Notes: generated by a model not told the origin, from the letters alone. Counted from the stretch's first letter, positions 6,010 through 61,199 are shown. The stretch: 64,000 nucleotides of DNA from an uncultured bacterium (GCA_903841185.1 CAIMIV010000003.1:773-64772); one strand, 5' to 3'. Numbers and translations: made by a program.

Positions 6010-6750
6010 ATGCATATAGAAGAATTGATCAATGCTGGACTCAGTGAACATGAGGCCAAAGTCTATTTGGCGGCGCTGGAGTTGGGCGAAACCAGTGTTT
6101 ATCGCTTGGCCAAGAAATCTGGTGTCAAAAGGACTACCACCTATTTGGCGGTGGAATCTTTGAAGGGGAAAGGCTTGATCAGCGCTTTTCAGCGCAACAA
6201 CGTCACGCTTTGCTATGCGGAAAGCCCAAAGAAGTTGGCGGTGGCGCTGGAGGAAAAGAAAAAATCCCTAGACCGGATTATGCCGGAACTGTTGGCGTTT
6301 AATAATCTGATGGATAAAAAGCCTAAGATCAAATATTTTGAAGGGCGAGAGTCCTATAAAGAGGTTTTCGACGATGTCTTGAAATATCCTGGCACGGAAA
6401 TGCTGGCAACTTTCAATGAAAAGTTTTGGAATCGAGACAATTATTTTGTCGGCTATTTTATGCCGAAACGCAAAGAAAAGAAGATTTGGGCACGAGAACT
6501 GTTTCAGGATAGTCCGGAATTGCGAAATCTGAAAAACGAGGAACGGCTGCATTTTTTCCAAAGCAAGCTGGTGCCGGGAGATAAATTCAAAATTGAGATT
6601 GAAATGGTCATCTACGGGAACAACAAGGTAGGATTTGTTTCCTATGATGAAGAGATTGCGATTATTATTGAAAGTCAAAAAATCCATGATACGCAAAAAA
6701 GTTTTTTTGAAACGATCTGGAGCTTGTTGCCAGAGCACAAGAGTAAATAA
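6010..6750 (+). CDS. TrmB-family HTH transcriptional regulator, paralog P2
   Basis: 'LSEHEAKVYLAALELGETSVYRLAKKSGVKRTTTYLAVESLKGKGLI' plus the C-terminal 'IAIIIESQKIHDTQKSFFETIWSLL' box. The track start 5977 is a TTG; the ATG at 6010 is preferred. Confidence 0.7.
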   Translation: MHIEELINAGLSEHEAKVYLAALELGETSVYRLAKKSGVKRTTTYLAVESLKGKGLISAFQRNNVTLCYAESPKKLAVALEEKKKSLDRIMPELLAFNNLMDKKPKIKYFEGRESYKEVFDDVLKYPGTEMLATFNEKFWNRDNYFVGYFMPKRKEKKIWARELFQDSPELRNLKNEERLHFFQSKLVPGDKFKIEIEMVIYGNNKVGFVSYDEEIAIIIESQKIHDTQKSFFETIWSLLPEHKSK

Positions 6751-8175: not shown

Positions 8176-8919
8176 ATGTTAAAAAAGGACTTAGAAGTCA
8201 TCGGATTGGACGATAGCGAGGCTAGCGCCTATTTGGCTTTGCTGGAATTGGACGAAGCCTCCATCGCGCAAATTGCCGCCAAAGCCAAACTAAAGCGACC
8301 GACCACCTACCTGATTGTGGAATCTCTGAAAGAAAAAGGTTTAGTGGGTATGGTCAAAAGAAAGAAAAAGACTTTGTTTCTGGCGGAAGACCCCAGAAAA
8401 ATTCTGGATATGCTGGAAGAACGCAAACAAAAGATGAATCGCATCATGCCGGAGCTGCTGTCGTTTGCCAATGTGTTGGATAAAAAACCAGGTATTCGTT
8501 ATTTCGAAGGTTGGGAAGGCATCAAGGATGTCTATCGTGACACCTTGAATTATCCCGAGCAAGAATTTCAGGCTTTTTTCTCGGAAGTTTTTTTGACGCG
8601 CTTTGACGAGAAGTTTTTTACCGAATTTTATTATGATCAGCGTCTGCAAAAAAGAATTTTCGTGCGGGCGATTTTGCCCGACAATGCCGACACACGCGAA
8701 TTGGTTACGCATGACCAAGCGCAACTGCGCAAATCAAAATTGGCACCAGTCGGCATGTTTCATATGAATATTGAAATCAACACCTACGGCAAAGACAAGG
8801 TGGGGATTATTTCTTTCGAAGAAGATTTCGCCCTAATCATCGAAAGTAAAAAAATTCACGACAGCCTCAAAAGTCTGTTCGAACTAACTTGGAGCTTGTT
8901 GCCGGAGAATAAAGGATAG
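8176..8919 (+). CDS. TrmB-family HTH transcriptional regulator, paralog P3
   Basis: 'DSEASAYLALLELDEASIAQIAAKAKLKRPTTYLIVESLKEKGLV' plus C-terminal 'FALIIESKKIHDSLKSLFELTWSLL'. Confidence 0.7.
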   Translation: MLKKDLEVIGLDDSEASAYLALLELDEASIAQIAAKAKLKRPTTYLIVESLKEKGLVGMVKRKKKTLFLAEDPRKILDMLEERKQKMNRIMPELLSFANVLDKKPGIRYFEGWEGIKDVYRDTLNYPEQEFQAFFSEVFLTRFDEKFFTEFYYDQRLQKRIFVRAILPDNADTRELVTHDQAQLRKSKLAPVGMFHMNIEINTYGKDKVGIISFEEDFALIIESKKIHDSLKSLFELTWSLLPENKG

Positions 8920-23476: not shown

Positions 23477-24223
23477 TTATTCCTTTGATTCGGACAAATT
23501 TTTCCAAAGAAGTTCAAAAATCATTTTCATTGTATTGTGAACTTCAGAACTTTCAATGATAGTTCCCATGATTTCCTTGCCGGATATCAGGGATACTTTA
23601 GAGCCGCCATAAATATCAATCCCGATTGAAAAAGGATACTCTTCTTGATTAATGAATTTCATTGATCGGAGTTCGGATGTATTTTTTTGGAAAAGTATTT
23701 TTTCGAAATATTGGGTGGTTGGTGTGATAGCACGAACATGAATATTTTTTTTAACCCTGCTTTGTATAAACTGTTCCATCCATTCGTAACCTAATGCACT
23801 AACAGTGTCCTCTGAGGCAAAAGTCGTATATTCTTCTCCTTCGTAGTTCAATTTATCGTTGTAGATCTCTTGTATCCCGGTAAGACCTTCATAGTAGGAA
23901 ACGCTAACTTTTCCGATATCTTTTTTTTGAATAGCCATCAATTCCGGGAGCATTTCCTTAGCTTCATTTAGTTTTTCTTGGAAAAGTTTGAGGCATTCGG
24001 TCGGTGATTTCGCAACATAGAGAGTTTTCTTGTTTTGAGGAATCTTCAAAACAAAACCTTTTTGTACAAGGTTTTCAAGAATCACATAGGCTGTGGCTTT
24101 TTTGAGGCCACTTTTTTGATGTATTAAATAGGCAGTAGCTTTTTTGAAAGAAAGAAGGCTGATGTAGACCGTGGCCTCTTTTTCAGTAAAACCAATGCCA
24201 ATAAGAGTGCTAATCATTTCCAT
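23477..24223 (-). CDS. TrmB-family HTH transcriptional regulator, paralog P4
   Basis: 'FTEKEATVYISLLSFKKATAYLIHQKSGLKKATAYVILENLVQKGFV' plus C-terminal 'GTIIESSEVHNTMKMIFELLW'. Start moved to the 'MEMISTLIG' ATG at 24223, which has a TTGACC-17-TATAAT promoter in front. Confidence 0.65.
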   Translation of the reverse strand: MEMISTLIGIGFTEKEATVYISLLSFKKATAYLIHQKSGLKKATAYVILENLVQKGFVLKIPQNKKTLYVAKSPTECLKLFQEKLNEAKEMLPELMAIQKKDIGKVSVSYYEGLTGIQEIYNDKLNYEGEEYTTFASEDTVSALGYEWMEQFIQSRVKKNIHVRAITPTTQYFEKILFQKNTSELRSMKFINQEEYPFSIGIDIYGGSKVSLISGKEIMGTIIESSEVHNTMKMIFELLWKNLSESKE

Positions 24224-24229
24224 GAACAC

Positions 24230-24258
24230 ATTATAGCACTGTATTGGTGTATGGTCAA
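24230..24258 (-). promoter_or_regulatory. Promoter of TrmB paralog P4
   Basis: Minus strand reads TTGACC - 17 nt - TATAAT - 6 nt - ATG. The -35 lies within TTGTTCGTCAtaaatatTGACCA, a degenerate version of the TTGTCA-N7-TGACAA inverted repeat seen at the other paralogs. Confidence 0.5.
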
Positions 24259-24428
24259 TATTTATGACGAACAATAGTTATTTTATATAAAAGACTTATA
24301 ATTAGCCAAGATATTGATATCACGGGGTATATTATAATTGACCTTTTTGCTAATTTGTGATAGGATTGTATGTTCAGATAGAAATAGGTCTATTTGAAAA
24401 GTACTTTAACAAAACAAGAGGTGAGATT

Positions 24429-31460: not shown

Positions 31461-32873
31461 ATGAAAAATATAAAAAAAATATCAGTGTTGTTTTTTTTAG
31501 CAATGGCAGCAGTAAGCTTGTCTGGTTGCGGCTGCAAGCAAACAAACCCGAATCCTTATGCGATTAATCTAGAAATATGGGGTCTTTTTGAAAACGATGA
31601 TCCTTATGGAGCAATGTTTGAGGCGTATAAGAAAAAAAATCCGAATGTGCGCAATATCACCTACAAGAAAATGACCACGGATTCCTATCAGAAGGAATTG
31701 ATAGACGCGCTGGCTTCCGGGCAGGGTCCAGATATTTTTTTAGTGCATAATAATTGGATTCCGAGTTTCAAGGATAAGATTTATCCTGCCCCAGCGGACG
31801 TGGTAACGGAGCAAAAAGTGCGTAATGAATTTGTGGATGTGGTAGCAGATGATTTTGTTCTCGACGGAAATATTTATGCTCTGCCTTTGAGTGTGGATTC
31901 GTTAGGGTTGTATTATAATAAAGATCTTTTTAATGAAATTGGTATTACCACTCCGCCTAAGGATTGGGATGAGTTTGTTGCGGATGCCGGGAAATTGACG
32001 AAGTTGGATGTCCAAAGCCAAATCATTCAATCGGGGGCAGCCATGGGAACGTTTACTAATATAAACAGACCTACGGATGTGCTAAACCTGTTGATGCTAC
32101 AGCGTGGCACGGAGATGGTAGATGTGAAAAATCATAAAGCGACTTTTGCTGAATATGCGGGCAGTGGCGGAAAAAGCTCTTCTCCCGGGGAAAACGCTTT
32201 GACTTTCTATACGCAATTTGCGAATCGAAGTGCACAAACCGTGCCCTATACTTGGAACCCAAGATTGCATTATTCCATTGATGCTTTCAGTGAAGGAACA
32301 CTTGGGATGATGTTCAACTATTCTTGGCAAATTGATGTTTTGAACGGAAAAGCGCCGAAGTTGAATTATGCTGTAGCGCCCGTGCCTCAATTTCCTAACA
32401 CTAAACAAGTGAATTTTGCTAATTATTGGGGCTTTGCAGTGGCGAAAACCAGAACACCGGATACGGGAAACATGGATCCGGCTAAGCTGGTCACCAATGA
32501 TATCCGGGCGAAAGAGGCTTGGAAATTGCTGACTTATATGACTACTAAGCAGGACCCGGCACTGGATGCAGCCAATGCTGCCATAAGCAAGATGACAGCC
32601 GAACAGGCTAAATTGGATCCAGCGAAGGATTATATGGAAAAAACCAAGAAGCCGGCGGCCAGAAGAGATTTGTTGGAAACGCAGAAGACGGACGCCGTGT
32701 ATGGAGTTTTTGCATCCGGAAATTTGATCGCCAAAAATTGGTACCAGATTGCACCAGATGCTATTGAGGCTTTGTTTGCCCAGCTGATTACGCAAATAAA
32801 TAATGGCGAGGTGAGTGTGGCGGATGGTCTGCGTTCGGCAGCGGCGGCGGTGACGCAGATGATGGGCAGATAA
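31461..32873 (+). CDS. ABC transporter extracellular solute-binding lipoprotein (SBP family 1-like)
   Basis: Lipobox 'LSGCGC'. 470-aa periplasmic-binding-protein-like sequence. Confidence 0.6.
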   Translation: MKNIKKISVLFFLAMAAVSLSGCGCKQTNPNPYAINLEIWGLFENDDPYGAMFEAYKKKNPNVRNITYKKMTTDSYQKELIDALASGQGPDIFLVHNNWIPSFKDKIYPAPADVVTEQKVRNEFVDVVADDFVLDGNIYALPLSVDSLGLYYNKDLFNEIGITTPPKDWDEFVADAGKLTKLDVQSQIIQSGAAMGTFTNINRPTDVLNLLMLQRGTEMVDVKNHKATFAEYAGSGGKSSSPGENALTFYTQFANRSAQTVPYTWNPRLHYSIDAFSEGTLGMMFNYSWQIDVLNGKAPKLNYAVAPVPQFPNTKQVNFANYWGFAVAKTRTPDTGNMDPAKLVTNDIRAKEAWKLLTYMTTKQDPALDAANAAISKMTAEQAKLDPAKDYMEKTKKPAARRDLLETQKTDAVYGVFASGNLIAKNWYQIAPDAIEALFAQLITQINNGEVSVADGLRSAAAAVTQMMGR

Positions 32874-32877
32874 TTTT

Positions 32878-33462
32878 TTGAAAAATCAAAAGAATAATAT
32901 GAAAAAATGGATGGCAAAAGGATTATTATTAGTGGGGCTGGCTGTTATGGCCGTAGGAATGTTTCATTTCGCATCCAACAGCGCACTAGCTGCGGCAGGT
33001 GAGGCATGTACTATGCCTGATGGGAGCGCTGGCATGCGAAAGGCGGATGGAACGTGTATGGTTGGTGATGGAACAATAACTGGTCCCGTAACAATTGCAT
33101 CTGATTATTCAGGTGGTTTGGTGAAATGTGGAAAGAGCGGAGGTAGTGCCTGCACACTGTGTGATTTAGTGGTGGGCTTTCAGACATTAACCGGCTATCT
33201 GACATCGATTCTAATCGTCATCACTTTAGCAGGCTTGTTTCTCTCCGGGGTGATGTATATTATTTCGGCGGGAGATGAAAGCATGATGACATCGGCGAAG
33301 AACTTTGCCAAAGCCAGTGTGATTGGTTTTACAGTGGTGTTGGGAGCCTGGCTGATTGTGAATGTGACGATGATGTGGGTGATGTCAGCCAAGACTGATT
33401 TAGGGTTAGGATCAGATAAAAATGCGGGCTGGAGCGTGTTTAAATTCAAGTGCACCAAATAA
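32878..33462 (+). CDS. Pilin-like two-TM protein 1 (TrbC/VirB2-like, T4SS-pilin-like) with Cys-rich N-domain
   Basis: Module 'LTGYLTSILIVITLAGLFLSGVMYIISAGDESMMTSAKNFAKASVIGFTVVLGAWLIV': TM - GDE/KAK loop - TM. N-terminal CTMPDG...CMVGDG...CGKSGGSACTLC. Confidence 0.5.
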   Translation: MKNQKNNMKKWMAKGLLLVGLAVMAVGMFHFASNSALAAAGEACTMPDGSAGMRKADGTCMVGDGTITGPVTIASDYSGGLVKCGKSGGSACTLCDLVVGFQTLTGYLTSILIVITLAGLFLSGVMYIISAGDESMMTSAKNFAKASVIGFTVVLGAWLIVNVTMMWVMSAKTDLGLGSDKNAGWSVFKFKCTK

Positions 33463-33522
33463 CTAACATCTTAGACAATTTTTGATTAGGCGAGTAATAA
33501 TTTTTTTAAAAAATAAATTAAA

Positions 33523-34278
33523 ATGAAAAAGTATTTTATCAGTGCGAGTGTGGTATTTTTGGTATTAACTTTCAATCTTGTGATTAGTCAGCCGGCGCAG
33601 GCAACCATATGCTGTCAAAGTAGTGCTGGATGCGGCTCTGTTGAGGGCACAACGTGTTCCCCTGGATTTACAAAAGTGGACTGTGCGAGTGCAGGTTGCC
33701 CAGGAACAACTAGTGGTAGTGGCACTTCTGGAGAAGGAACAACTACTAGTAGTGGAGCTACCTTCGTCAACCCAATCAAATTCACCACTGTTTCTGCGGT
33801 AGTGAATGCTCTTATGACAAACTTGCGTGGAATTTTGGTGAGCGTGGCAGTGTTGTTTATTGTCATTGGAGCAATAATGTATATTTTGTCTGCCGGAGAC
33901 GAAAAGAAAATGACCACTGCCAAAGGGACGATTACCGCCGCCATGATTGGCTTGGCGATTGCTTTGGCAGCGCCGTCATTTTTGAGCGAAATTATCACCA
34001 TTCTGGGTGGGAAGAAGGATGGCTTGGATACGACTACTATTTCTGGTGCGATCACATTGAGAGCTATTATTTTGAATACTTTGAATTTTTTGTTGAGCGT
34101 GGTGGGAATATTAAGTCTGATTGGAATGGTTGTGGGCGGTTCGTTCTATCTTACGGCCTATGGAGATGATAAAAAAGCAGAGAATGGTAAGAAGATAATC
34201 ACTGCTTCGGTGATTGGCATTGTGGTGGCTCTAGGAGCCTTGACGATTGTTACTCAAATCGCCAAATTTTTTAAGTAG
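33523..34278 (+). CDS. Pilin-like protein 2 (two tandem TM-GDE/GDD-TM modules, Cys/Gly/Thr-rich N-domain)
   Basis: 'ILSAGDEKKMTTAKGTITAAMIGLAIALAA' and 'YGDDKKAENGKKIITASVIGIVVALGA' modules, each flanked by hydrophobic helices. Confidence 0.5.
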   Translation: MKKYFISASVVFLVLTFNLVISQPAQATICCQSSAGCGSVEGTTCSPGFTKVDCASAGCPGTTSGSGTSGEGTTTSSGATFVNPIKFTTVSAVVNALMTNLRGILVSVAVLFIVIGAIMYILSAGDEKKMTTAKGTITAAMIGLAIALAAPSFLSEIITILGGKKDGLDTTTISGAITLRAIILNTLNFLLSVVGILSLIGMVVGGSFYLTAYGDDKKAENGKKIITASVIGIVVALGALTIVTQIAKFFK

Positions 34279-34425
34279 AACTCTTGCGTAATAAGTTGCG
34301 TAACCAAAATATGGAAATTGCAGTAGGGAATTATTATGCAAGAGATCTAATAGTGCCAAAAAGAGAAAAGTAGTATATACTGTAAATAGAAGAAAATAAA
34401 AATAAATCTAGATGGGAGGTGCAAT

Positions 34426-34788
34426 ATGAAAAATAAAATTAAAGCTTCTCTGTCTGTAGCGATAGCTGCCTTGATGGCCATTCCAGCGACGGTTTCTTTG
34501 GCTGCCGGTTTTACGCCGCCTACCGGCACGTTGTTACCGGAAGGAACTATTACACAGATTGTTACCGGCATCATGAATTGGCTATTAGTGTTGGTGGGAA
34601 TTTTTGGCGTAATTGGTTTTGCGATTGCTGGTATCCTGTATTTGATTTCCGCCGGTGACGAAACCAAGGCGGAAAAGGCGAAAAATGCTATGCTCTATTC
34701 TATTATTGGTGTGATTGTGGCTATTCTGGGTATGGTAGTGATCAAGGCGGCTCAAACAATGTTGGGCGGACAAGTCACAACCTACTAG
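34426..34788 (+). CDS. Pilin-like protein 3
   Basis: Signal peptide, then 'IMNWLLVLVGIFGVIGFAIAGILYLISAGDETKAEKAKNAMLYSIIGVIVAILG'. RBS GGGAGGTG upstream. Confidence 0.5.
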   Translation: MKNKIKASLSVAIAALMAIPATVSLAAGFTPPTGTLLPEGTITQIVTGIMNWLLVLVGIFGVIGFAIAGILYLISAGDETKAEKAKNAMLYSIIGVIVAILGMVVIKAAQTMLGGQVTTY

Positions 34789-34851
34789 TTTTAGATACAA
34801 AAAAAGAAACAGTCAGTTATCCACAGGCTGTTTTTTTTTGCTTAAAAAAAT

Positions 34852-34865
34852 AATTGTGGTATAAT
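34852..34865 (+). promoter_or_regulatory. Extended -10 promoter (TGTGGTATAAT) upstream of pilin-like gene 4
   Basis: TGnTATAAT extended -10. A hairpin plus T-run at 34806..34845 terminates the previous gene. Confidence 0.45.
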
Positions 34866-34896
34866 AAAAACAAGTTTAAATAAATATAAAAAAAAT

Positions 34897-35256
34897 ATGC
34901 AAAGAAAAACCCTGCAGAAAAATATACTAATTTTCCTTACCATTATGGCTATAGGTTATCCCGTGACTTCTTTTGGCGCATGGGCGCTTCCGGGTAATTA
35001 TGGTCTTCCTGTAGGGCATATCACAGATATTATTGAAGGTATATTAAATTGGCTTTTAGTTATCATTGGCCTAGTTTCTATTATTGGATTCGTGATTGCC
35101 GGCGCTAAATATATTTTGGCCATGGGCGATGACAAGGCCGTGGAGTCTGCCAAGAATGCTATGAAAAATTCTATCATCGGAGTAGTAGTAGCTTTATCTG
35201 GCTATGTAATTATTCAAGCAGTGGTATATATGTTAAATGGTTACTCCACGTTCTAA
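34897..35256 (+). CDS. Pilin-like protein 4
   Basis: 'ILNWLLVIIGLVSIIGFVIAGAKYILAMGDDKAVESAKNAMKNSIIGVVVAL'. Confidence 0.5.
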   Translation: MQRKTLQKNILIFLTIMAIGYPVTSFGAWALPGNYGLPVGHITDIIEGILNWLLVIIGLVSIIGFVIAGAKYILAMGDDKAVESAKNAMKNSIIGVVVALSGYVIIQAVVYMLNGYSTF

Positions 35257-35272
35257 TTTTTTAATAAAAGTA

Positions 35273-35632
35273 ATGTTACAGAAAAATAAATTTTGGCTAG
35301 CTTCTTTTGCTATCTTCATAATGACTCTTCCTGTGATGGTGTGGGGAGCTGACGCAGTCACTGGTATTGATATTCCTACTACAGCTGAAACTGGCTTAAC
35401 TAGTCAATTGATCTACCCTATTGTAGATAAATTCTTTAGCTGGTTATTGAGTGTGATTGGGATTGTGGCATTGATTAGTTTTGTGATTTCCGGAGCCATC
35501 TATATTATGTCTTCAGGTGATGATAAAACTGTGGAAAAAGCTAAGAATGCTATGAAAAATTCCATCATTGGTATAATAATAGTGTTAGGATCGTTCGTAA
35601 TTCTCCAATTCATCGACACGATGTTGCGGTAG
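35273..35632 (+). CDS. Pilin-like protein 5
   Basis: 'FFSWLLSVIGIVALISFVISGAIYIMSSGDDKTVEKAKNAMKNSIIGIIIVL'. Start set at the ATG after the gene-4 stop. Confidence 0.5.
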   Translation: MLQKNKFWLASFAIFIMTLPVMVWGADAVTGIDIPTTAETGLTSQLIYPIVDKFFSWLLSVIGIVALISFVISGAIYIMSSGDDKTVEKAKNAMKNSIIGIIIVLGSFVILQFIDTMLR

Positions 35633-35661: not shown

Positions 35662-35703
35662 TAAAAGGCGTTTCTCGAGAATCTCGAGGAACGCCTTTTT
35701 TTT
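35662..35703. terminator. Bidirectional terminator between the pilin array and the convergent membrane-protein gene
   Basis: GGCGTT-tctcgagaatctcgagg-AACGCC followed by TTTTTTTTT. Contains a nested CTCGAG-aat-CTCGAG. Confidence 0.65.
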
Positions 35704-35708
35704 TGCGG

Positions 35709-36761
35709 CTATAGCGGGTATAACTCCAGGAGATTGTCTCCCTCTTTTTGGCCAATGGTGCCTCCTGGCGCACTATTGGCATCAATGAACTTCAGGGTAA
35801 AGTGGCCAGAGTTATTATTGCCCTGAGTCCACCTGCCTGCATATTGCTGGTCTCCGAATCCTGTGCCAGTCAATTGGAGACCATCCTCGCATTCAATAGA
35901 GAGTGTCTCTTTAGTTCTGTGAATGCTTTTCACCAGGAAATAAACATTCTCTCCAGATCTTCTGGTTTGTTTGAACTGAAGTCTGGCGGTTGGAACAAAC
36001 ACAGTTTCGGCTGGAGACGGGTCGAGTTTTTTCGGCTCAACCTTTTTCGCAGCCTCTTTCTTATTGGGCTCCCACTTAATCTTGCGAATGGGCACCAGGG
36101 CCGACCGACTTTTCACGAAATCGCCGTGTTCATTGGCGATGAGGACGTAGGCCATTCCTTCGGTTCCGCTCCCAGCTGGGTCTTCCGACTGAGCTTTGCT
36201 CTGAAGACCAAGAGACATAATGCATTGTCCCTTGAGGAGCTGGAGATTGTCGATGGTGGTACCGGTCTCGTCGTAAGCGAGAGAGGATTCGGTTAATGTT
36301 CCGAACGTTCCCTTGCTTACTTCTGAGCTGAGCAACTCCTTTTTGATAGAGATACTCCTTTCCTCCAACTTATTGTTGACGAGCTTCTTCTCATTATTCC
36401 GCCACTCTGTGTAGGCGGGGAAGTTTGTTGTGATGTAATTTTCCATAGGGGGGAAAACTTTTCCGCCTAGGTAGATAACCACACCAAGAATTAATATTGT
36501 ACTGAAGACCCATCTCAATGGTGTGATCCAGATGGAGAGTGTCCCAATAACAAACAGGGTAGAAATCATCCCACCGTAGACTGTCCAAAATGGAATTCCC
36601 AATAGGAATAGCGTAAGCGCTAGAATTCCTACAAGGGCGATTACAACTCCCACGCCAGGAGCATGATCCAGAAAAAAAATGTACACCTCGCCGATCAAAT
36701 TTTGAACGGGGCGCAGACACAGGAGTACGATTATCCCGATTACAATAGCTGCTATTTGCAT
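35709..36761 (-). CDS. Hypothetical membrane protein (4 N-terminal TM helices plus soluble C-domain)
   Basis: Hydrophobic N-terminal ~130 aa. No motif. Confidence 0.4.
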   Translation of the reverse strand: MQIAAIVIGIIVLLCLRPVQNLIGEVYIFFLDHAPGVGVVIALVGILALTLFLLGIPFWTVYGGMISTLFVIGTLSIWITPLRWVFSTILILGVVIYLGGKVFPPMENYITTNFPAYTEWRNNEKKLVNNKLEERSISIKKELLSSEVSKGTFGTLTESSLAYDETGTTIDNLQLLKGQCIMSLGLQSKAQSEDPAGSGTEGMAYVLIANEHGDFVKSRSALVPIRKIKWEPNKKEAAKKVEPKKLDPSPAETVFVPTARLQFKQTRRSGENVYFLVKSIHRTKETLSIECEDGLQLTGTGFGDQQYAGRWTQGNNNSGHFTLKFIDANSAPGGTIGQKEGDNLLELYPL

Positions 36762-36764
36762 AAC

Positions 36765-37478
36765 TTATCTCCTTGCTTTTCTTCGTAGTTTGGCTTCTCG
36801 GATTCGACGAGCGACATCATTAGACGTCTCTTCGCTGAATAAATTTTTCACAAAACCAACAACTGGCTTTGCAGCTTCCCCAAGAGTGATGTTTTCTTGG
36901 TTGTTTTTTCCGAAATGGATAATTCTTTCTTCGAGCAAGTCCATTTTGGAATTTTCATCAGGGCACTTTGTTATTCCAAGGAAGATTCCATACCAGAGTT
37001 GGTTAGCGAAAATAAAACGTTCATTTGGGTTTTTTTCATTCGCAGTTTTATCTTCCGCCATGAGAAATACGAGACCTTTGGCTCTATCATAGAGTAGCTT
37101 TAGTCTTTGCGTTTCCTCAGGGCTTTTTCCTGCAAAATCTGGATTGTTCATTTCATAGTGCTTTTTAAGAAAAAGTAATTTATCATCAAGGGATATGCCC
37201 GTTAGGCTAACCAGAGAAGTAAAAAAAACTGATTCATCACCTCTTCCTCTCCCGCCTTTAAGGATCTCAACCAGCTTTTCCTTGACAGCTTCGTGAATAT
37301 CCGGATGGGACATAAGGTTTTTAATAAGACTCATAACTCCCCCTGCGAACACGCCTGTTGCGGCAGCTTCTGCCACCTCTCCTATGATTTTCTTCACAAC
37401 ACCGCTTTTCTTGTCAGTTGCAGGGTTAGCACTCTTATCCTCGTTTTTTCCCGTGGCATTATTCCTTGTATCAGCCAT
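36765..37478 (-). CDS. Hypothetical protein
   Basis: 237 aa, Lys/Arg-rich C-terminus. Its stop lies 4 nt before the next gene's start, so the two are probably co-transcribed. Confidence 0.4.
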   Translation of the reverse strand: MADTRNNATGKNEDKSANPATDKKSGVVKKIIGEVAEAAATGVFAGGVMSLIKNLMSHPDIHEAVKEKLVEILKGGRGRGDESVFFTSLVSLTGISLDDKLLFLKKHYEMNNPDFAGKSPEETQRLKLLYDRAKGLVFLMAEDKTANEKNPNERFIFANQLWYGIFLGITKCPDENSKMDLLEERIIHFGKNNQENITLGEAAKPVVGFVKNLFSEETSNDVARRIREAKLRRKARR

Positions 37479-47262: not shown

Positions 47263-48417
47263 ATGCAAAAGCTCAATCGGTTTTTAATAGTCACCGTAGC
47301 TATGGTACTTATGTTTGGCTTAACTGAATCAGTTAAGGCTGCAACTCAGGTACCTCTTTTGACTGCAGGTAACTTTGCTGTTCTGGGTGGTTCCACAGTT
47401 ACCAACACTGGCTCGAGTGTGTTAACCGGCGATTTGGGTGTATCAGCCGGCTCTGCAATTACGGGTTTTCCACCAGGCACAACTAGTGGGACAACACATT
47501 CAAATGACGCAGTAGCAATTCAGGCTCAAGTTGATTTAACAGCGGCTTATATCAATGCTAGTGGCCAAGCATGTGATCACAATTTGACTGGACAAGATTT
47601 GGGAGGAAAAATTCTTACGCCGGGTGTCTATTGTTTTGATTCTTCCGCACAATTAACCGGAACATTAACACTTGATGGCGGGGGAGATCTTAATGCTGTT
47701 TTTATTTTTAAAATGGGCTCTACTCTCACCACAGCTTCGGGCAGTAAAGTTAGTTTGATTAATAGCGCTCAGTCTTGTCATGTCTTTTGGCAAGTTGGCA
47801 GCTCAGCAACACTGGGAACGACTACAAAATTCAAGGGAAATATTCTAGCTTTGACATCTATTACATTGAATACAGGTGCAACTATAAATAACGGTAGAGC
47901 GTTAGCGCGAAACGGTGCTGTTACATTGGATTCAAATACAATTACCAAGTCAACCTGTGCAACCTCTTCAGACGAGTTGACGAATGGATCTGTGAACGAA
48001 ACTGAAGTTACGAGCTCTGATATTAAAGTTAAAAAAACAGCCAGTGATTATAAATTAAATTCTGGGCCAAAGAAAGTCACTTTCACCTATAAGGTTACTA
48101 ATGAAGGGGATGTTGCGTTGAGTGACATCTCAGTCAAAGACGATAAATGTGATGACGTAAAATATGATTCTGGTGATAGTAATAATGATAATCTTCTAGA
48201 TGTAACTGAAGAATGGAAATATGAGTGTACTAAAAAAGTTAAGAAAACTGAGACTAATACTGTCACTGCCAAAGGAACGGCTAATGGAGAGAGAATAAAA
48301 GATACTGATACAGCTAAGGTTACCGTTTCAACTCCTGGTCTCCCTAACGCGGGATCTAATCCTGATGAAGCGGATAGCAGCTTGTGGATGCAGATAATGA
48401 GCTGGTTCTCATTCTAA
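47263..48417 (+). CDS. DUF3494 (ice-binding-like) family secreted protein with LPNAG sorting-like motif
   Basis: 'LTAGNFAVLGGSTVTNTGSSVLTGDLGVSAGSAITGFPPGTT' is the characteristic DUF3494 N-terminal box. C-terminal 'LPNAGSNPDEADSSLWMQIMSWFSF'. Confidence 0.55.
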   Translation: MQKLNRFLIVTVAMVLMFGLTESVKAATQVPLLTAGNFAVLGGSTVTNTGSSVLTGDLGVSAGSAITGFPPGTTSGTTHSNDAVAIQAQVDLTAAYINASGQACDHNLTGQDLGGKILTPGVYCFDSSAQLTGTLTLDGGGDLNAVFIFKMGSTLTTASGSKVSLINSAQSCHVFWQVGSSATLGTTTKFKGNILALTSITLNTGATINNGRALARNGAVTLDSNTITKSTCATSSDELTNGSVNETEVTSSDIKVKKTASDYKLNSGPKKVTFTYKVTNEGDVALSDISVKDDKCDDVKYDSGDSNNDNLLDVTEEWKYECTKKVKKTETNTVTAKGTANGERIKDTDTAKVTVSTPGLPNAGSNPDEADSSLWMQIMSWFSF

Positions 48418-48423
48418 AGGGTT

Positions 48424-48583
48424 AGAGCCTGTTCATAATCTCCGTATTCTGCTGCGAAATTGAAATTCCGGCTGCAAATTGTTCAAAACTCGTCGAAATA
48501 TCCAGATATTCCTCCTCATTTTTCACAATTTTCGCTCGAAATTACAATCTCTCGCGACGAAAGAGAGATTATGAACAGGCTCT
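48424..48583. mobile_element. MITE-like element copy B
   Basis: Left end AGAGCCTGTTCATAATCTC, right end GAGATTATGAACAGGCTCT. Internal hairpin ATCTCTC-gcgacgaa-GAGAGAT. Confidence 0.65.
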
Positions 48584-48656
48584 TAGTGAAAATATCCCCT
48601 GTCGATTAAAAGTCAGGAAAGTCAAACCAGCATTGGTTTGACTTTTCCATTTATAT

Positions 48657-49271
48657 ATGAAGATTTTAAAAAGAATATCGCTCCGAATACTACTAATAGC
48701 CATCCTTGGTGGAGCAATATTTGTGCTGGCACTGATGGTTTATTTTAATTTTAAACAGCCAGTGCAAAATATTGCGGAGCCGCCGGCAGATACCGCTAGT
48801 TTGGTTGATAAGGAAGTGGAAAATATCAATTTGCCGGTGCGGCTCAAGATTCCCGGGATTGGGGTGGATGCTGCCATTGAGTCGCTAGGACTTACGGCTG
48901 CCGGATCGATGGACACGCCGAAAGGCCCGGACAATGTGGCTTGGTATGCGCTCGGAACTCGCCCTGGAGAGCAAGGTAGTGCGGTTATCGCAGGGCATTA
49001 TGGAAAATGGAAAAACGGGCAGGGGTCAGTATTTGATGACCTGCATAAATTAAATAAAGGCGATAAATTGTATATTGAGGATGATAAAGGAATGATAATT
49101 ACCTTTGTGGTGCGCGAAAGCCGCAATTATGACCCAAACGCGGACGCCATAGAGGTATTTAGCTCAGACGACGAGCGGGCTCATCTCAATTTGATTACCT
49201 GTGAAGGAATTTGGAATAAAGCCGAAAAGAGTTTTTCTCAGCGGTTAGTGATATTTGCGGATAAAGAATGA
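48657..49271 (+). CDS. Sortase-family transpeptidase
   Basis: N-terminal TM, catalytic 'VIAGHYG' His and 'LNLITCEG' TLxTC Cys box, Arg downstream. Confidence 0.65.
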   Translation: MKILKRISLRILLIAILGGAIFVLALMVYFNFKQPVQNIAEPPADTASLVDKEVENINLPVRLKIPGIGVDAAIESLGLTAAGSMDTPKGPDNVAWYALGTRPGEQGSAVIAGHYGKWKNGQGSVFDDLHKLNKGDKLYIEDDKGMIITFVVRESRNYDPNADAIEVFSSDDERAHLNLITCEGIWNKAEKSFSQRLVIFADKE

Positions 49272-49382
49272 TTTTTGCCCGGATAGTTCCTTGCTGCGAG
49301 GAAATAGGAAAAAATAAATTGCTTAGTTGGTATTTAGAAATTTCCCTGACAAGGGATTTTTTTATGGGGACAAGAATAAAGC

Positions 49383-50645
49383 GTGTCAAAAGTTGTATTT
49401 ACCTGTATACTAGATACGCTTATGTATATATTTAGAAATAATCAAAAAGAAATTTCCATTTGGAAAAAGCCAGTGCCTTTTGCGGGAGTAGTTTTGTTGT
49501 TGCTTGTTTTGAGTGGTGGCTTTGCTTGGTATGCTCTCAGTTTTTCGAGCAAAATTGTTTTTGATAGTGTCCAACCGAAATTAATTTCTCCAAAAAGGAA
49601 TCTTCCGGAAGCAACCGATTTTTTTCCGGGAGAAAAGGATGGCCAAGTGTGGCATTTTGCTCCCGGGCCAATTTCCATGCGAAAAATCCGAAGTAATGGT
49701 TGTGTGGCGGATGGCTTGTTATCGGGTTATGGAGAAAAAACTAAAGAAATAACCGCTATGTTTAATCGTTCAAATTGCATTTATCTGCATCGTGCTTTGG
49801 AAACGTGGTTGCGCGTGCCTGACTTCAAGGAAGCAGAAAGTATTATGGAAAATGTTAAATTGCAACCGGTAGTGTATGGGATGTTTATTGCGGAAGCAAT
49901 TTCCACGCGAAAAAAATATGAGGATGCAGTAGATGGAAAAAAATATCATTATGAAAAAATGTGTCGGGAAGGAACGGAAGGCCGATGGGGAGCGGACACC
50001 TGCATTCCGAGTGTAGGGAATGTAGAGTATCGGCGCTATCTCAAAGTGATTACTCAGCGAGCGATGGATATTGGGATCCAAAGTTTTCTGTTCGGCCAGA
50101 TCCAACTGCAAGATGAAAAGCATAACTTCCAAGAAACGGAGATGAAAAATATCCTGGCGGATATGCGGCAATATGCCCAGGAGAAAAACATGCAAATTAT
50201 CGTGGGGGCACAGACAGATGATATTGTGGATGAGCCCTATCTGCGGATGTTTGATTATATCGAGGGAGGGGTGGGCATAGATGTGGCCGGTCAGGTGGAG
50301 GATCAGCCCTGCTCCAGTAATTTTGCCAGTTGTTGGGCTTTGCTGTGGGACAAGCGCTATAGCGCCAAGGCGAATAATGTTTTCCTGCATCTGGATTGGA
50401 GCGGTCTGGTCTGGGATGATATGGGAAAATTTGCCAGAATGACTCAAGAAATACGAATGCAGACTCTGCAAAATTTATATGCTAAATTTAATACGGGCAA
50501 TACCGGGTTCATGCTGCCCTATTTAGCTGTGCTTAATCATCAAAATGAGGGTTGTTACGGTCCTAATAAAGATTTTTATACCCCGAGTAATAAGTATAAA
50601 TGCAAGGATGAGGACGCCATGAATCAAATATTGCCTAAATTATAA
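49383..50645 (+). CDS. Hypothetical membrane-anchored protein
   Basis: 420 aa, one N-terminal TM, no motif. Confidence 0.35.
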   Translation: MSKVVFTCILDTLMYIFRNNQKEISIWKKPVPFAGVVLLLLVLSGGFAWYALSFSSKIVFDSVQPKLISPKRNLPEATDFFPGEKDGQVWHFAPGPISMRKIRSNGCVADGLLSGYGEKTKEITAMFNRSNCIYLHRALETWLRVPDFKEAESIMENVKLQPVVYGMFIAEAISTRKKYEDAVDGKKYHYEKMCREGTEGRWGADTCIPSVGNVEYRRYLKVITQRAMDIGIQSFLFGQIQLQDEKHNFQETEMKNILADMRQYAQEKNMQIIVGAQTDDIVDEPYLRMFDYIEGGVGIDVAGQVEDQPCSSNFASCWALLWDKRYSAKANNVFLHLDWSGLVWDDMGKFARMTQEIRMQTLQNLYAKFNTGNTGFMLPYLAVLNHQNEGCYGPNKDFYTPSNKYKCKDEDAMNQILPKL

Positions 50646-50699
50646 AAAGATAGGCGGATTGGAAAGGTGTGGTATAATAGGAAGATAAAAAAATAAGCT

Positions 50700-51155
50700 A
50701 TGCGCATGAATAAAAAAATAGTGGGACTGCTGGTGGCAATTATTCTTTTGGGAGGAATAATATTCTTTTTCAATCATCCGATAGATAAAGTTAATCAAGA
50801 TAAGCAATTAATTAAAAATAATAAACCTATGGAATTGGAAATTAAAACTACCGCTGCCGGGTCCGGGGAGCGGAAGACTAAAAATGGCGACAAGATTGCA
50901 GTGCATTACACTGGGAAATTGACTGACGGGACAAAATTTGACTCTAGTCTTGACCGCGGAACGCCGTTTGAATTTCAAATTGGCCAAGGGATGGTGATTG
51001 CCGGTTGGGATAAGGGATTATTGGATATGCAGGTGGGAGAAAAAAGAACTCTGACGATTCCGGCCGATATGGGCTATGGTGCGCAAGGAGCCGGGGGTAT
51101 TATCCCGCCGAACGCGACTTTGATTTTTGACGTAGAACTGATGGCCATAAAATAA
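50700..51155 (+). CDS. FKBP-type peptidyl-prolyl cis-trans isomerase
   Basis: '[65 protein letters not shown]...ATLIFDVEL'. Confidence 0.8.
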
Positions 51156-51172
51156 GCGAGAAACTGAAGTGA

Positions 51173-51214
51173 AAAAACATCCCGTCCCGCTAAGCGGAAT
51201 AGGATGTTTTTTTG
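51173..51214 (+). terminator. Rho-independent terminator
   Basis: ACATCCCGTCCCGC-taag-CGG..GGATGT followed by TTTTTTT. Shares the 14-nt CCCGTCCCGCTAAG with the terminator at 21052. Confidence 0.6.
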
Positions 51215-51241
51215 TTGCGGGAAATATGCTAGAATGTCTGT

Positions 51242-52012
51242 ATGCAGAAAATAAAGGTCAGCAGCAAAATAGTGATAATAGGCGGTCTTGTTATTGGCGG
51301 GTGCATTTTATTGGCAGTCTTTTTTCACGGAACATTTTTCAAGGAGAGTCGGGTGGTGATTGAAAATAAGGAGATAGAGGAAGGAAAAGAAAGTGCGCCA
51401 TTGTCGCAAGAGGGTAATAGCATGCACGAACAGGCGGACTCGGCAGAGAATGGCCAGCTGGAAATGGTTCCAAATACGCCGAAAGAAACTAAGGTAGTCG
51501 ATAAGAGTCAAAGTGCTTCTATCGCGCAGGATAAAAATAAAAAAGAAGGAGATTTGATAATCGTGAATAGGCTAGTCAATTTTGGGCAAGAAAAAAGAAA
51601 CTCCCGGTTGATTGACACAATTGTGATTCATTCTTCCTATAACGCTCTAGGCGCTGATCCTTTTAGTGTGAGTGGCATCATCAAGGAATATCAGGAATAT
51701 GGCGTGGCAGCGCATTATTTGATTGACAGGGAGGGTATGATATATCAATTAGTGGAAGACAAAAACGTCGCTTATCATGCGGGACTGAGCAGCGTGCCGG
51801 ATGGTCGGAAGGGAGTGAATGAATTTTCCTTAGGCATTGAATTGGTGAATACTAAAACAGAGCAATTCACTGACAAACAATATAGCGCCTTGAATAGCTT
51901 GTTGCAGTCGCTGAAAAGCAAATATCCGATAAAGTATGTTCTGGGGCACAACCAAATCGCTCCAGGAAGAAAGGATGATCCTTGGAATTTTCAATGGGAT
52001 AGATTAAAATAG
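51242..52012 (+). CDS. N-acetylmuramoyl-L-alanine amidase (Amidase_2/PGRP domain)
   Basis: N-terminal TM; 'IVIHSS', 'AAHYLIDREG', 'VAYHAG', 'NEFSLGIEL', 'GHNQIAPGRKDDP' boxes. Confidence 0.7.
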   Translation: MQKIKVSSKIVIIGGLVIGGCILLAVFFHGTFFKESRVVIENKEIEEGKESAPLSQEGNSMHEQADSAENGQLEMVPNTPKETKVVDKSQSASIAQDKNKKEGDLIIVNRLVNFGQEKRNSRLIDTIVIHSSYNALGADPFSVSGIIKEYQEYGVAAHYLIDREGMIYQLVEDKNVAYHAGLSSVPDGRKGVNEFSLGIELVNTKTEQFTDKQYSALNSLLQSLKSKYPIKYVLGHNQIAPGRKDDPWNFQWDRLK

Positions 52013-60467: not shown

Positions 60468-61199
60468 ATGTTACATAGGCAATTACAAGACGCTGGATTG
60501 AACGAAACTGAGGCGAAAATCTATCTCGCTTCTTTGGAGTTGGGGCAGACTTCCGTCAGTCGCATTGCCAAAAAAGCTGGCATTAAGCGCACAACGGTTT
60601 ATTTGTCACTGGAAAACTTAATGCAAAAAGGTTTGGTGAGTGCTATTAAAAAAGAGGGCAAAAGTCACTATTATGCTGAAGATCCACGGAATTTGGAGCG
60701 AATAATGGTGGAAAAGAAAGAACGAATTAGTAAAGTGATTCCGGAATTGTTGGCCTTTACTAATTTAATTGATAGAAAGCCTGAAATTCGTTATTTTGAA
60801 GGTGACGAAGGCATTAAGGAAGTTTTAATGAATGCGCTGATTAATGCTGATGGGGAAATTTTGACAATGTATTCTGAATCTTATATAAATGATTTTGATG
60901 AGAAATTTTTTTCTGAATATTATGTTCCTGAGAGAATCAGGCGAAGAATCTCTGCTCGAGCACTTCTACCAGACAATAATCAGATGAGAGAACTCGCAAT
61001 GACTAATGAGATATCTTTGCGTAAAACACGATTTGTATTCGCAGACTTGTTCAAAATCAAGATCGAAGTAATGATATACGATAGAGACAAACTGAGCATT
61101 ATTTCATATAAGGAAAAATTCGCCCTAATTATAGAAAGCCCGGCCATTCATGACAGTTTCAAGAGTATTTTTGAAACGATGTGGGCTGGGGCGAAGTAA
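60468..61199 (+). CDS. TrmB-family HTH transcriptional regulator, paralog P5
   Basis: 'LNETEAKIYLASLELGQTSVSRIAKKAGIKRTTVYLSLENLMQKGLV' plus C-terminal 'FALIIESPAIHDSFKSIFETMWAGA'. Confidence 0.7.
   Translation: MLHRQLQDAGLNETEAKIYLASLELGQTSVSRIAKKAGIKRTTVYLSLENLMQKGLVSAIKKEGKSHYYAEDPRNLERIMVEKKERISKVIPELLAFTNLIDRKPEIRYFEGDEGIKEVLMNALINADGEILTMYSESYINDFDEKFFSEYYVPERIRRRISARALLPDNNQMRELAMTNEISLRKTRFVFADLFKIKIEVMIYDRDKLSIISYKEKFALIIESPAIHDSFKSIFETMWAGAK

What the first reader, a model, noticed from the sequence alone, without database searches (positions are those of the whole stretch)
32878..35632. Tandem array of five paralogous pilin-like two-TM proteins without any adjacent secretion machinery
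Five consecutive same-strand genes encode proteins built on one module: hydrophobic helix - short acidic/basic loop (SAGDE/MGDD/SGDD…KAEKAKNAM) - hydrophobic helix, preceded by a signal/TM segment. This matches the TrbC/VirB2-like T4SS-pilin type that has been described in CPR bacteria. Gene 2 contains two modules in tandem. Genes 1 and 2 carry extra Cys- or Gly/Thr/Ser-rich N-terminal domains. Each gene has its own promoter-like and terminator-like signals, which suggests independent or variable expression (antigenic or functional pilin variants?). No VirB4/VirD4/VirB6, pilus ATPase or prepilin peptidase is present within the window. What assembles or uses five paralogous pilins is unclear.
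Basis: partly seen in the sequence, partly recalled or inferred. Interest (0 to 1): 0.65.

Follow-up and report, generated by a model that had tools for sequence, protein, structure and literature searches.

The report
VirB2-like pilin gene array, Moranbacteria
Five neighbouring genes in an uncultured ultra-small (Patescibacteria) bacterium encode type IV secretion pilin-like membrane proteins, a kind of gene array already described for this phylum, and in sister genomes the secretion motor sits directly beside the same array, so the finding is real but mostly ordinary.

Summary
Five same-strand genes (32911-35632) all pass the Pfam PF18895 T4SS_pilin cut-off. Gene 2 carries two modules. The 64-kb window, and the scaffold out to about 72 kb, hold no VirB4, VirD4 or VirB6.

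The organism is a Candidatus Moranbacteria (Patescibacteria) metagenome bacterium. Tandem arrays of 2-11 divergent VirB2-like pilins, often far from virB4, are already published for this phylum (PMC12102498; essential in Southlakia epibionticum, PMC10633639). So this is a new member of a known kind.

"What assembles them" is answered by comparison, not directly:
- In at least five related Moranbacteria lineages the same upstream synteny (IF-2, DUF4446, methyltransferase, solute-binding lipoprotein, pilins) runs straight into prgI, traC-like and virB4.
- In the window's lineage that core is missing after a strong terminator and is presumably elsewhere. I could not test this.

Additions beyond the literature I read:
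- The array holds three anciently diverged, orthologously conserved classes: a Cys-motif single (g1), a fused double module (g2, exactly one per array in 31 of 33 arrays) and short singles (g3-g5).
- An orphan SBP_bac_1 lipoprotein gene is conserved immediately upstream.
- One strain variant swaps only g5.

Pilus formation itself is unproven.

The parts
31461..32873 (+). Orphan SBP_bac_1 solute-binding lipoprotein (lipobox LSGC). It is a conserved immediate upstream neighbour of the array and is probably co-transcribed with it.
   Evidence: Pfam PF01547 at 105.7 bits. Orthologues (39-71% identity) occur in 45 related metagenome loci, and the next gene is a pilin in 36 of 43 scorable loci. The same order is seen in VirB4-anchored loci.
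32911..33462 (+). g1: class C pilin. It has a signal peptide, a Cys-containing N-terminal extension with the GLVxCG...CTLC[DH]L motif directly before TM1, one PF18895 module and a C-terminal tail. Alternative starts are 32878 and 32899.
   Evidence: PF18895 at 28.7 bits against a cut-off of 26.6. The gene call of 183 aa is. The motif class has 38 members across related loci. g1 is a singleton in module clustering.
33472..33501 (+). Promoter-like site ahead of g2 (TAGACA, 18 nt spacer, AATAAT).
   Evidence: Consensus scan only, 10 of 12 matches.
33523..34278 (+). g2: class D pilin. It has a signal peptide, a Cys-rich and G/T/S-rich low-confidence region, and two fused PF18895 modules (four TM helices). 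It is the most conserved member of the array.
   Evidence: PF18895 at 55.6 bits in two stretches. The AF2 model has helices at 90-122, 127-160, 179-211 and 216-249 with pLDDT about 90. It is 40-60% identical to 50 homologues. The a and b modules each cluster with their orthologues in all related loci. There is exactly one class D gene per array in 31 of 33 arrays.
34281..34344 (+). Stable hairpin after g2 with no U-run. Possibly a processing or stabilising element; its function is unknown.
   Evidence: MFE -20.9 kcal/mol, z -4.9, and 0 of 200 shuffles fold as well.
34353..34381 (+). Promoter-like site ahead of g3 (GTGCCA, 17 nt spacer, TATACT). A GGGAGG ribosome-binding site precedes the g3 ATG.
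   Evidence: Consensus scan, 9 of 12 matches. The RBS is read from the sequence.
34426..34788 (+). g3: class s short pilin, with a signal peptide and one module.
   Evidence: PF18895 at 38.6 bits. Its module is 76% identical to the orthologue L010:917-1279.
34801..34839 (+). A/U-rich hairpin followed by a U-run after g3 (terminator-like).
   Evidence: MFE -14 kcal/mol, z -2.9.
34857..34865 (+). Extended -10 element TGGTATAAT ahead of g4.
   Evidence: Read from the sequence. It is a consensus match only.
34897..35256 (+). g4: class s short pilin.
   Evidence: PF18895 at 43.6 bits. The AF2 model has a signal helix plus a hairpin at 42-74 and 79-118, mean pLDDT 72.
35273..35632 (+). g5: class s short pilin (alternative start 35237). 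This is the one member replaced by a 75%-identical allele in a co-occurring strain.
   Evidence: PF18895 at 44.6 bits. NCBIfam NF045849 at 43.9 bits against a cut-off of 40. In the L005 variant, 56 of 58 differences fall in g5.
35663..35699 (.). Strong bidirectional intrinsic terminator that closes the array. It marks the point where sister genomes continue into prgI, traC-like and virB4.
   Evidence: 17-bp stem with a T-run. MFE -31.4 kcal/mol, z -5.9.

Best explanation
The five genes are a chromosomal array of VirB2/TrbC-type type IV secretion (T4SS) pilin-family proteins in a Candidatus Moranbacteria (Patescibacteria/CPR) bacterium.

Shown:
- All five belong to PF18895.
- Each has a Sec-type signal peptide and one helix-loop-helix membrane hairpin. 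g2 has two.
- There are three anciently diverged classes, each with orthologues in related genomes: a Cys-motif single (g1), a fused double module (g2) and short singles (g3-g5, expanded by duplication).
- The orthologous array in sister lineages is contiguous with prgI (VirB3-like), traC-like (probably the TrsD of the literature) and virB4.

Inferred:
- The precursors are inserted by Sec and cleaved by signal peptidase I. They sit in the membrane with the charged loop towards the cytoplasm.
- A VirB4-powered, monoderm-type (MPF-FATA-like) T4SS extracts or organises them into a heteromeric pilus or channel extension.
- g1 and g2 are single-copy structural parts. Their extra N-terminal domains would face outwards, possibly as base, tip or adaptor.
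- g3-g5 are the bulk or variable subunits.
- In this lineage a rearrangement just after the array removed the ATPase core from the locus. That core is expected elsewhere in the genome.
- By analogy with Southlakia epibionticum, where the pilin array and T4SS are essential for epibiotic growth and no relaxase is present, the apparatus most likely serves host-cell interaction rather than conjugation.
For: Family:
- PF18895 is above cut-off for all five proteins.
- NF045849, the pilin-like conjugal transfer protein family, is above cut-off for g5.
- 20 of 51 g2 homologues also match PF04956 TrbC/VirB2.
- A full HMMER search found 55,788 relatives, many with several modules.

Topology.

Lineage: the RpoB 90% cluster consists of Moranbacteria/Parcubacteria MAGs. 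Related loci come from Moraniibacteriota MAGs.

Classes and orthology.

Linkage to T4SS:
- L053 and L054 carry SBP, pilins, PrgI (PF12666, 36.6 bits against 27), a 228-aa protein, and VirB4 (PF19044 at 95.6 bits; PF12846).
- The same order, with identical upstream synteny (DHH, RbfA, IF-2, DUF4446, MTase, SBP), occurs in GCA_035325685.1, GCA_029560755.1, GCA_002306085.1, GCA_964484505.1 and others.
- VirB4 is widespread and 72-82% conserved in Moranbacteria.
- It is marked present in 4 of the 6 Moranbacteria rows I read in Table S1 of PMC12102498.

Literature: arrays of 2-11 VirB2-like genes are published. The array and T4SS are essential and a relaxase is absent in S. epibionticum.
Against: - No T4SS core gene lies on this scaffold out to about 72 kb. 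I could not locate virB4 in the same genome, so loss of the core in this lineage is not excluded.
- The window proteins do not themselves hit PF04956.
- A profile comparison with A. tumefaciens VirB2 was not significant.
- Foldseek against the PDB was uninformative for both models.
- No pilus has yet been seen in any Patescibacterium (PMC12857230).
- The roles assigned to the three classes are inference only.
Confidence: 0.75

Rival explanations
1. Variation cassette. The paralogues are interchangeable major pilins kept to vary the exposed surface, for antigenic, phage or host-range variation, and are expressed independently or alternately.
For: - A strain variant differs almost only in g5, with 56 of 58 differences and 75% nt identity, changing sharply at the g5 start.
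- The number of short class s genes varies from 0 to 6 between related arrays.
- There are promoter-like sites before g2, g3 and g4, and hairpins after g2, g3 and g5.
- PMC12102498 suggests the same idea.
Against: - g1, g2a and g2b are ancient classes with orthologues in every related locus, and there is exactly one double-module gene per array.
- Ortholog identities (45-68%) match those of housekeeping neighbours (42-67%), so there is no accelerated evolution overall.
- There are no long identical repeats, invertible segments or recombinase nearby.
- All genes are complete and carry signal peptides.
- The L005 variant contig ends inside g5 and could be an assembly chimera of two strains.
Confidence: 0.2
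2. Channel parts, not a pilus. The proteins are membrane-embedded or wall-spanning structural parts of the T4SS translocation channel and never form an extended filament. This would fit monoderm T4SSs, which otherwise lack pili.
For: - Monoderm MPF-FATA systems have no pilus, and none has been observed in Patescibacteria.
- Fused multi-module forms with 2-8 modules per polypeptide are common. These would be awkward as helical pilus subunits but natural as polytopic membrane components.
- VirB6 homologues are scarce in some classes.
Against: - Homology is to pilus-forming VirB2/TrbC.
- The short singles have the size and topology of canonical mature pilins.
- There is no direct evidence either way.
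Confidence: 0.3
3. T4SS-independent surface or membrane module working with the adjacent orphan solute-binding lipoprotein, for example a nutrient-capture or uptake structure. This would explain why the SBP and pilins stayed together when the ATPase core left the locus.
For: - SBP-pilin adjacency on the same strand with short gaps is conserved in 36 of 43 related loci and in all contiguous-type T4SS loci.
- No permease lies next to the SBP in the window.
- No T4SS core is on the scaffold.
Against: - The whole block from IF-2 to iPGM is syntenic in this clade, so adjacency may be inherited order.
- In several loci 1-3 genes separate the SBP from the pilins.
- Where the core is present it is contiguous with the pilins.
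- There is no precedent for VirB2-family function without VirB4.
Confidence: 0.1
4. Unrelated small two-TM proteins (holin, bacteriocin or immunity type) misassigned by a low-complexity hydrophobic match.
For: Weak sub-threshold hits to other TM families such as Cyt_bd_oxida_II, TctB and Saf_2TM.
Against: - All five are above the curated PF18895 cut-off with near full-length profile coverage.
- The loop motif G-D-[DE]...K...[SI]-[VI]-I-G is conserved.
- There is genomic linkage to PrgI, TraC-like and VirB4 in relatives.
- No lysis or toxin genes are nearby.
Confidence: 0.02

Closest known systems
VirB2-like pilin arrays of Patescibacteria (Quinonero-Coronel et al. 2025, PMC12102498), including the essential six-gene pilin cluster of Southlakia epibionticum ML1 (Wang et al. 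2023, PMC10633639) and the 'Sec-secreted array' of Nanosynbacter lyticus TM7x
   Same: - Same Pfam family (PF18895).
- Tandem same-strand genes.
- Low paralogue identity: 23-53% here, against a published mean of 25% and maximum of 54%.
- Chromosomal, and no relaxase context.
- Pilins are often not next to virB4 (near it in only 1135 of 1948 assemblies).
   Different: - In S. epibionticum the array lies inside the T4SS cluster. Here the core is absent from the 80-kb scaffold.
- The paper reports arrays as most abundant in Microgenomatia and Saccharimonadia. This one is in Moranbacteria (class Paceibacteria).
- The three-class composition, the fused double module and the conserved upstream SBP are not described in the texts I read.
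Canonical TrbC/VirB2 pilins of diderm T4SS (Pfam PF04956; A. tumefaciens VirB2, RP4 TrbC)
   Same: - Signal peptide followed by two hydrophobic helices around a short charged loop.
- Size of the mature short members is about 90 aa.
- Homologues of g2 hit PF04956, 20 of 51 with best E 8.7e-17.
   Different: - The window proteins do not reach PF04956.
- hhalign against VirB2 was not significant.
- The host is a monoderm.
- Cyclisation and TraF-type processing are unknown.
- Fused double modules and Cys-motif N-domains are not features of the canonical pilins.
Mbov_0395 / MMCAP2_0565 pilin-like conjugal transfer protein of Mycoplasma ICEs (NCBIfam NF045849)
   Same: A small two-TM pilin-like protein of a wall-less or monoderm T4SS. 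g5 passes the curated cut-off (43.9 against 40) and g3 and g4 fall just below.
   Different: The ICE protein is a single-copy gene within a mobile conjugative element. Here there is a multi-gene chromosomal array with no ICE features.
Tandem VirB2 paralogues in Bartonella and Anaplasma T4SS loci (as cited in PMC12102498)
   Same: Multiple divergent VirB2 copies in tandem, and a proposed role in surface variation.
   Different: Those are recent variants of one pilin type in pathogens of animals. Here the classes are ancient, architecturally distinct and individually conserved.

Membership tests
Pfam PF18895 T4SS_pilin (CPR/monoderm VirB2-like pilins) | Profile HMM match at or above the gathering score (26.6 bits) | tested here: met
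   g1 28.7, g2 55.6 (two stretches), g3 38.6, g4 43.6 and g5 44.6 bits. g1 passes only narrowly.
Pfam PF18895 T4SS_pilin (CPR/monoderm VirB2-like pilins) | N-terminal Sec-type signal peptide followed by a helix, charged loop, helix hairpin | tested here: met
   Hydropathy segments and AxA-type sites come from the sequence. No dedicated SignalP or TMHMM tool was available, so cleavage is inferred.
VirB2/TrbC pilin superfamily as functional T4SS component | Encoded with, or in the same genome as, a VirB4 ATPase and other T4SS core genes | tested here: inconclusive
   Not met within the window or scaffold. Met in orthologous loci of sister Moranbacteria, where the pilins are followed by PrgI, TraC-like and VirB4. 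The rest of this genome could not be searched.
VirB2/TrbC pilin superfamily as functional T4SS component | Polymerises into an extracellular pilus, or is required for substrate transfer | not testable with these tools
   No experimental data exist for this organism. A pilus has not yet been observed in any Patescibacterium (PMC12857230).
Pfam PF04956 TrbC/VirB2 (canonical diderm pilins) | Profile HMM match | tested here: not met
   None of the five window proteins hit at E up to 1. 20 of 51 g2 homologues do. hhalign against A. tumefaciens VirB2 gave probability 0.4%.
NCBIfam NF045849 Mbov_0395 family pilin-like conjugal transfer protein | Score at or above the 40-bit curated cut-off | tested here: inconclusive
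   g5 43.9 (met), g3 36.5, g4 32.8, g2 21.3 and g1 12.9 (not met).
Published Patescibacteria 'VirB2 array' (PMC12102498 definition: 2-11 pilin genes in tandem or separated by one non-pilin gene) | At least two adjacent PF18895/PF04956 genes in a Patescibacteria genome | tested here: met
   Five adjacent PF18895 genes.
Type IV pilus (T4P) pilins | Class III prepilin signal (G/FTLIE) and a PilD/PilB/PilC context | tested here: not met
   There is no prepilin motif in the five N-termini (sequence) and no T4P Pfam hits. This family is not applicable.

The most novel reading that the evidence does not exclude
The conserved unit is not 'pilins plus ATPase'. It is 'orphan solute-binding lipoprotein, one Cys-motif pilin, one fused double pilin, and n short pilins'. 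This unit stayed intact when the VirB4 core left the locus.

If it is a functional module, the SBP may dock on or feed a VirB2-type filament or channel used to take up host-derived molecules. The idea that the T4SS and pilus could act as a conduit for uptake from the host was raised for Patescibacteria T4SS in PMC12857230. The fused double pilin would then be an obligatory single-copy nucleator or adaptor of a heteromeric assembly.

A loose precedent, from my own knowledge and not tested here, is the orphan SBP lipoproteins PrgZ and TraC encoded with enterococcal MPF-FATA conjugation systems.
Probability: 0.12. Interest if true: 0.75.

Novelty: new member of a known kind. Interest (0 to 1): 0.3.

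Why it matters
Patescibacteria make up a large share of bacterial diversity and depend on host cells. Their T4SS and its pilin array are among the few systems shown to be essential for the epibiotic lifestyle, and nobody yet knows what the apparatus moves or whether it builds a pilus.

This locus adds no new kind of system. The comparative picture does give testable structure to the problem:
- There are three conserved pilin classes, with exactly one fused double pilin per array.
- Expansion is confined to the short class.
- An upstream solute-binding lipoprotein is conserved next to the array.
- Sister lineages carry the same locus with and without the VirB4 core attached.

Tried and rejected
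1. A single-sequence homologue search with g4 returned only itself. Profile searches were needed.
2. A first genome scan with the six-module alignment failed for lack of conserved stretches. It was redone with g3-g5.
4. A PDB sequence profile search gave nothing significant. hhalign against A. tumefaciens VirB2 was not significant. The VirB2 sequence was recalled from memory and verified against 8cue.
5. I tried to find virB4 of the same organism.
   - The scaffold beyond the window has none.
   - Six VirB4 homologues were looked up. None came from the window's samples.
   - The same-metagenome pairing of a split-type array contig (L036) with a VirB4 contig (L113) was rejected: GC 54% against 42%, tetranucleotide r 0.30.
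6. The large ORFs next to the arrays in the GTDB loci are TPR proteins and glycosyltransferases, not VirB4.
7. The phase-variation idea found no support. There are no long repeats or invertible segments, only the 60-72% identical coding motif.
8. The two convergent unknown genes downstream (35709-37478) have no Pfam hit and no counterpart in related loci. I treat them as unrelated.
Full report
WHAT IS THERE

Five + strand ORFs occupy 32878-35632. Public gene calls on identical metagenome contigs start g1 at 32911 (183 aa) and g5 at 35273 (119 aa).

All five exceed the curated cut-off of Pfam PF18895 T4SS_pilin, with 28.7, 55.6, 38.6, 43.6 and 44.6 bits against 26.6. g2 has two matched stretches. 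g5 also passes NCBIfam NF045849, the Mycoplasma ICE pilin-like conjugal transfer protein. g3 and g4 fall just short.

Each protein begins with a K/R-rich, hydrophobic, AxA-terminated signal-like segment. One hairpin of two hydrophobic helices follows, around a G-D-[DE]...K loop. g2 has two hairpins.
- The AlphaFold2 model of g4 gives a signal helix plus a hairpin at 42-74 and 79-118 (pLDDT 72).
- The model of g2 gives four helices at pLDDT about 90 and a low-confidence Cys- and G/T/S-rich N-region.
- Module identities are 23-53%.

EXPRESSION SIGNALS

Only the site after g5 is a strong intrinsic terminator (35663-35699, -31.4 kcal/mol, z -5.9). g3 is followed by a weaker A/U hairpin with a U-run. 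g2 is followed by a stable hairpin without a U-run. g1 is followed by nothing. g4 and g5 are about 16 nt apart.

Promoter-like hexamers precede g2 and g3. An extended -10 precedes g4 (sequence). g1 abuts the upstream SBP gene.

CONTEXT

The neighbours are housekeeping genes:
- Upstream: RbfA, IF-2, DUF4446, tRNA-Ser, a methyltransferase and an SBP_bac_1 lipoprotein.
- Downstream: two convergent unknowns, then NusA, a DHH pyrophosphatase, trigger factor, ClpP and iPGM.

Every ORF of 500 aa or more in the window is identified, and none is a T4SS ATPase. The scaffold beyond the window, to about 72 kb, carries FtsK, RodZ, RecA, EF-P, S18, SSB, S6 and YchF. So 'no machinery nearby' is correct.

Prepilin peptidase and PilB-type ATPases are irrelevant to VirB2-type pilins (established knowledge).

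WHO

The window is identical to an 80-kb ENA metagenome scaffold and to contigs in several other samples. Its RpoB clusters at 90% or more with Candidatus Moranbacteria and Parcubacteria MAG proteins. Related pilin loci come from Moraniibacteriota MAGs.

WHAT IS KNOWN

- PMC12102498 searched 3,035 Patescibacteria genomes with PF18895 and PF04956. It reports 441 arrays of 2-11 VirB2-like genes in 383 assemblies, with mean intra-array identity 25% (maximum 54%). Pilins were near virB4 in only 1135 of 1948 assemblies.
- In Southlakia epibionticum the pilin series and the T4SS are essential for epibiotic growth, and no relaxase or coupling protein is recognisable (PMC10633639).
- A 2025 review calls these the only monoderm T4SSs with potential pili and notes that no pilus has yet been shown (PMC12857230).

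The finding is therefore a new example of a published kind.

LINK TO THE CANONICAL FAMILY

The window proteins do not hit PF04956. However, 20 of 51 close homologues of g2 do, with best E 8.7e-17. Direct hhalign against A. tumefaciens VirB2 and fold searches were uninformative.

WHAT ASSEMBLES THEM

Seven GTDB loci and 80 metagenome loci with relatives show the same block. A methyltransferase and the SBP lipoprotein are followed by an array of 1-8 pilin genes.

In L053 and L054 the array runs straight into PrgI (PF12666), a 228-aa protein and a 605-610-aa VirB4 (PF19044, PF12846).

Looking up Moranbacteria VirB4 homologues gave four more lineages (five look-ups: P0390, P0381, P0347, P0405, P0409). 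In each, the upstream synteny is the same as the window's (DHH-DHHA1, RbfA, IF-2, DUF4446, MTase, SBP), in whole or in part. It is followed by one or two pilins, PrgI, TraC-like (PF26593), VirB4, a small unknown, a ComM-like Mg-chelatase, a G5-DPBB protein, KsgA, UvrD, XerC and LysM-CHAP.

One lineage (L113) has PrgI, TraC-like and VirB4 in a different place, beside LysM-CHAP and large unknowns, with no SBP or array.

VirB4 is 72-82% conserved across many Moranbacteria MAGs. It is marked present in 4 of the 6 Moranbacteria rows I read in Table S1 of PMC12102498.

The simplest reading is that the window's lineage inherited the contiguous locus. A rearrangement just past the array then removed the ATPase core, which now lies elsewhere. 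I could not verify this for this genome. An attempted same-sample pairing (L036 with L113) was refuted by composition.

ANATOMY OF THE ARRAY (my addition)

Module clustering across the window and the seven GTDB loci gives three groups:
- The short singles (g3, g4, g5).
- The first modules of double proteins (g2a).
- The second modules of double proteins (g2b).

g1 is an outlier in that clustering. It belongs to a class of 38 single-module proteins with a G[LI]VPCG...CTLCH[LF] motif directly before TM1.

Among 33 non-redundant, fully internal arrays, 31 have exactly one double-module gene. The window's order C-D-s-s-s recurs in two others. Arrays next to VirB4 are minimal, either C+D or s+D. 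These loci were fetched with g2 or VirB4 as bait, so presence of a D gene is biased. 'Exactly one' is not.

g2 is 40-60% identical to 50 homologues. Ortholog identities of the pilins (45-68%) are similar to those of SBP, trigger factor, iPGM and NusA (42-67%). The paralogues are therefore old and individually retained. This argues for distinct structural roles rather than interchangeable variants.

Proteins with 3-8 fused modules exist elsewhere. The papers I read do not mention fused modules.

VARIATION

One contig from another sample (L005) is essentially identical over 3.4 kb but carries 56 of its 58 differences in g5, starting at the g5 start codon. This fits allele replacement of a short pilin. 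Because the contig ends inside g5, an assembly chimera cannot be excluded. No long repeats or invertible elements are present.

SBP LINKAGE (noticed)

An orthologue of the SBP lipoprotein lies on the same strand upstream in 45 of the 80 metagenome loci. The next gene is a pilin in 36 of 43 scorable cases, mostly 1-70 nt away. The same holds in all contiguous-type T4SS loci.

No permease is adjacent in the window. The published text and held supplements do not mention it. It may be inherited gene order, since the whole block is syntenic, or real coupling.

VERDICT

- The family assignment is right.
- 'Unclear what assembles them' is largely resolved by comparison with sister genomes and the literature.
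- The antigenic-variation idea is only weakly supported.
- This is a new member of a known kind, of modest interest.
- The residual novelty lies in the three-class architecture, the fused double pilin, and the SBP association.

Noticed in passing
window 31461-32873 (+), and loci L019-L116: An orphan SBP_bac_1 solute-binding lipoprotein gene sits directly upstream of the pilin array. The adjacency is conserved across related Moranbacteria-like loci: the next gene is a pilin in 36 of 43 scorable loci, and in all VirB4-contiguous loci. No ABC permease is adjacent in the window. It is not mentioned in the T4SS survey paper.
   Followed up: partly
L005:3424-3651 versus window 35273-35500: A strain variant from another sample is about 100% identical over SBP, g1, g2, g3 and g4. 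It is only 75% identical in g5 from its start codon onward, with 56 of 58 differences there. This is either allele replacement of one short pilin or an assembly chimera, since the contig ends inside g5.
   Followed up: partly
L015:3422-4909: A 495-aa protein in a related Moraniibacteriota MAG combines a pilin module (PF18895, 24.7 bits) with a C-terminal lysozyme-like SLT_3 domain (PF18896, 25.5 bits). Both are just under the cut-off. It looks like a possible pilin and VirB1-like hydrolase fusion at the head of the array.
   Followed up: no
proteins P0026-P0042 and others: Public metagenomes hold proteins with 3-8 tandem PF18895 modules in one polypeptide, up to 820 aa. This architecture is not discussed in the papers I read.
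   Followed up: partly
window 47263-52012 (+): A cluster of envelope genes: an Ice_binding plus DUF11/DUF7507 surface protein, a sortase, a 420-aa protein with no Pfam hit, an FKBP isomerase and an Amidase_2. It is probably a sortase-anchored surface protein locus.
   Followed up: no
window 35709-36761 (-) and 36765-37478 (-): Two convergent genes sit right after the array: a 350-aa protein with N-terminal TM helices and a 237-aa soluble protein. Neither has a Pfam hit or a homologue in the related loci. They occupy the position where sister genomes carry prgI, traC-like and virB4.
   Followed up: partly
window 34281-34344 (+): A very stable hairpin (-20.9 kcal/mol, z -4.9) lies in the g2-g3 spacer without a U-run. 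Several metagenome contigs break at about 34233, within g2 just upstream of this hairpin.
   Followed up: no
window 309-1073, 5977-6750, 8176-8919, 23477-24274 (-), 60468-61199: Five paralogous genes with similar N-termini resembling TrmB-family regulators (...E.E..IYLALLELG...) are scattered through the window. Only 60468-61199 was confirmed as PF01978 TrmB, from precomputed annotation.
   Followed up: no
L009, L010, L012, L014 record titles: Several GTDB-representative MAGs carrying these Moranbacteria-type arrays are titled 'uncultured Bdellovibrionales bacterium' in their public records. This is probably a taxonomy mislabel in the TPA assemblies.
   Followed up: no
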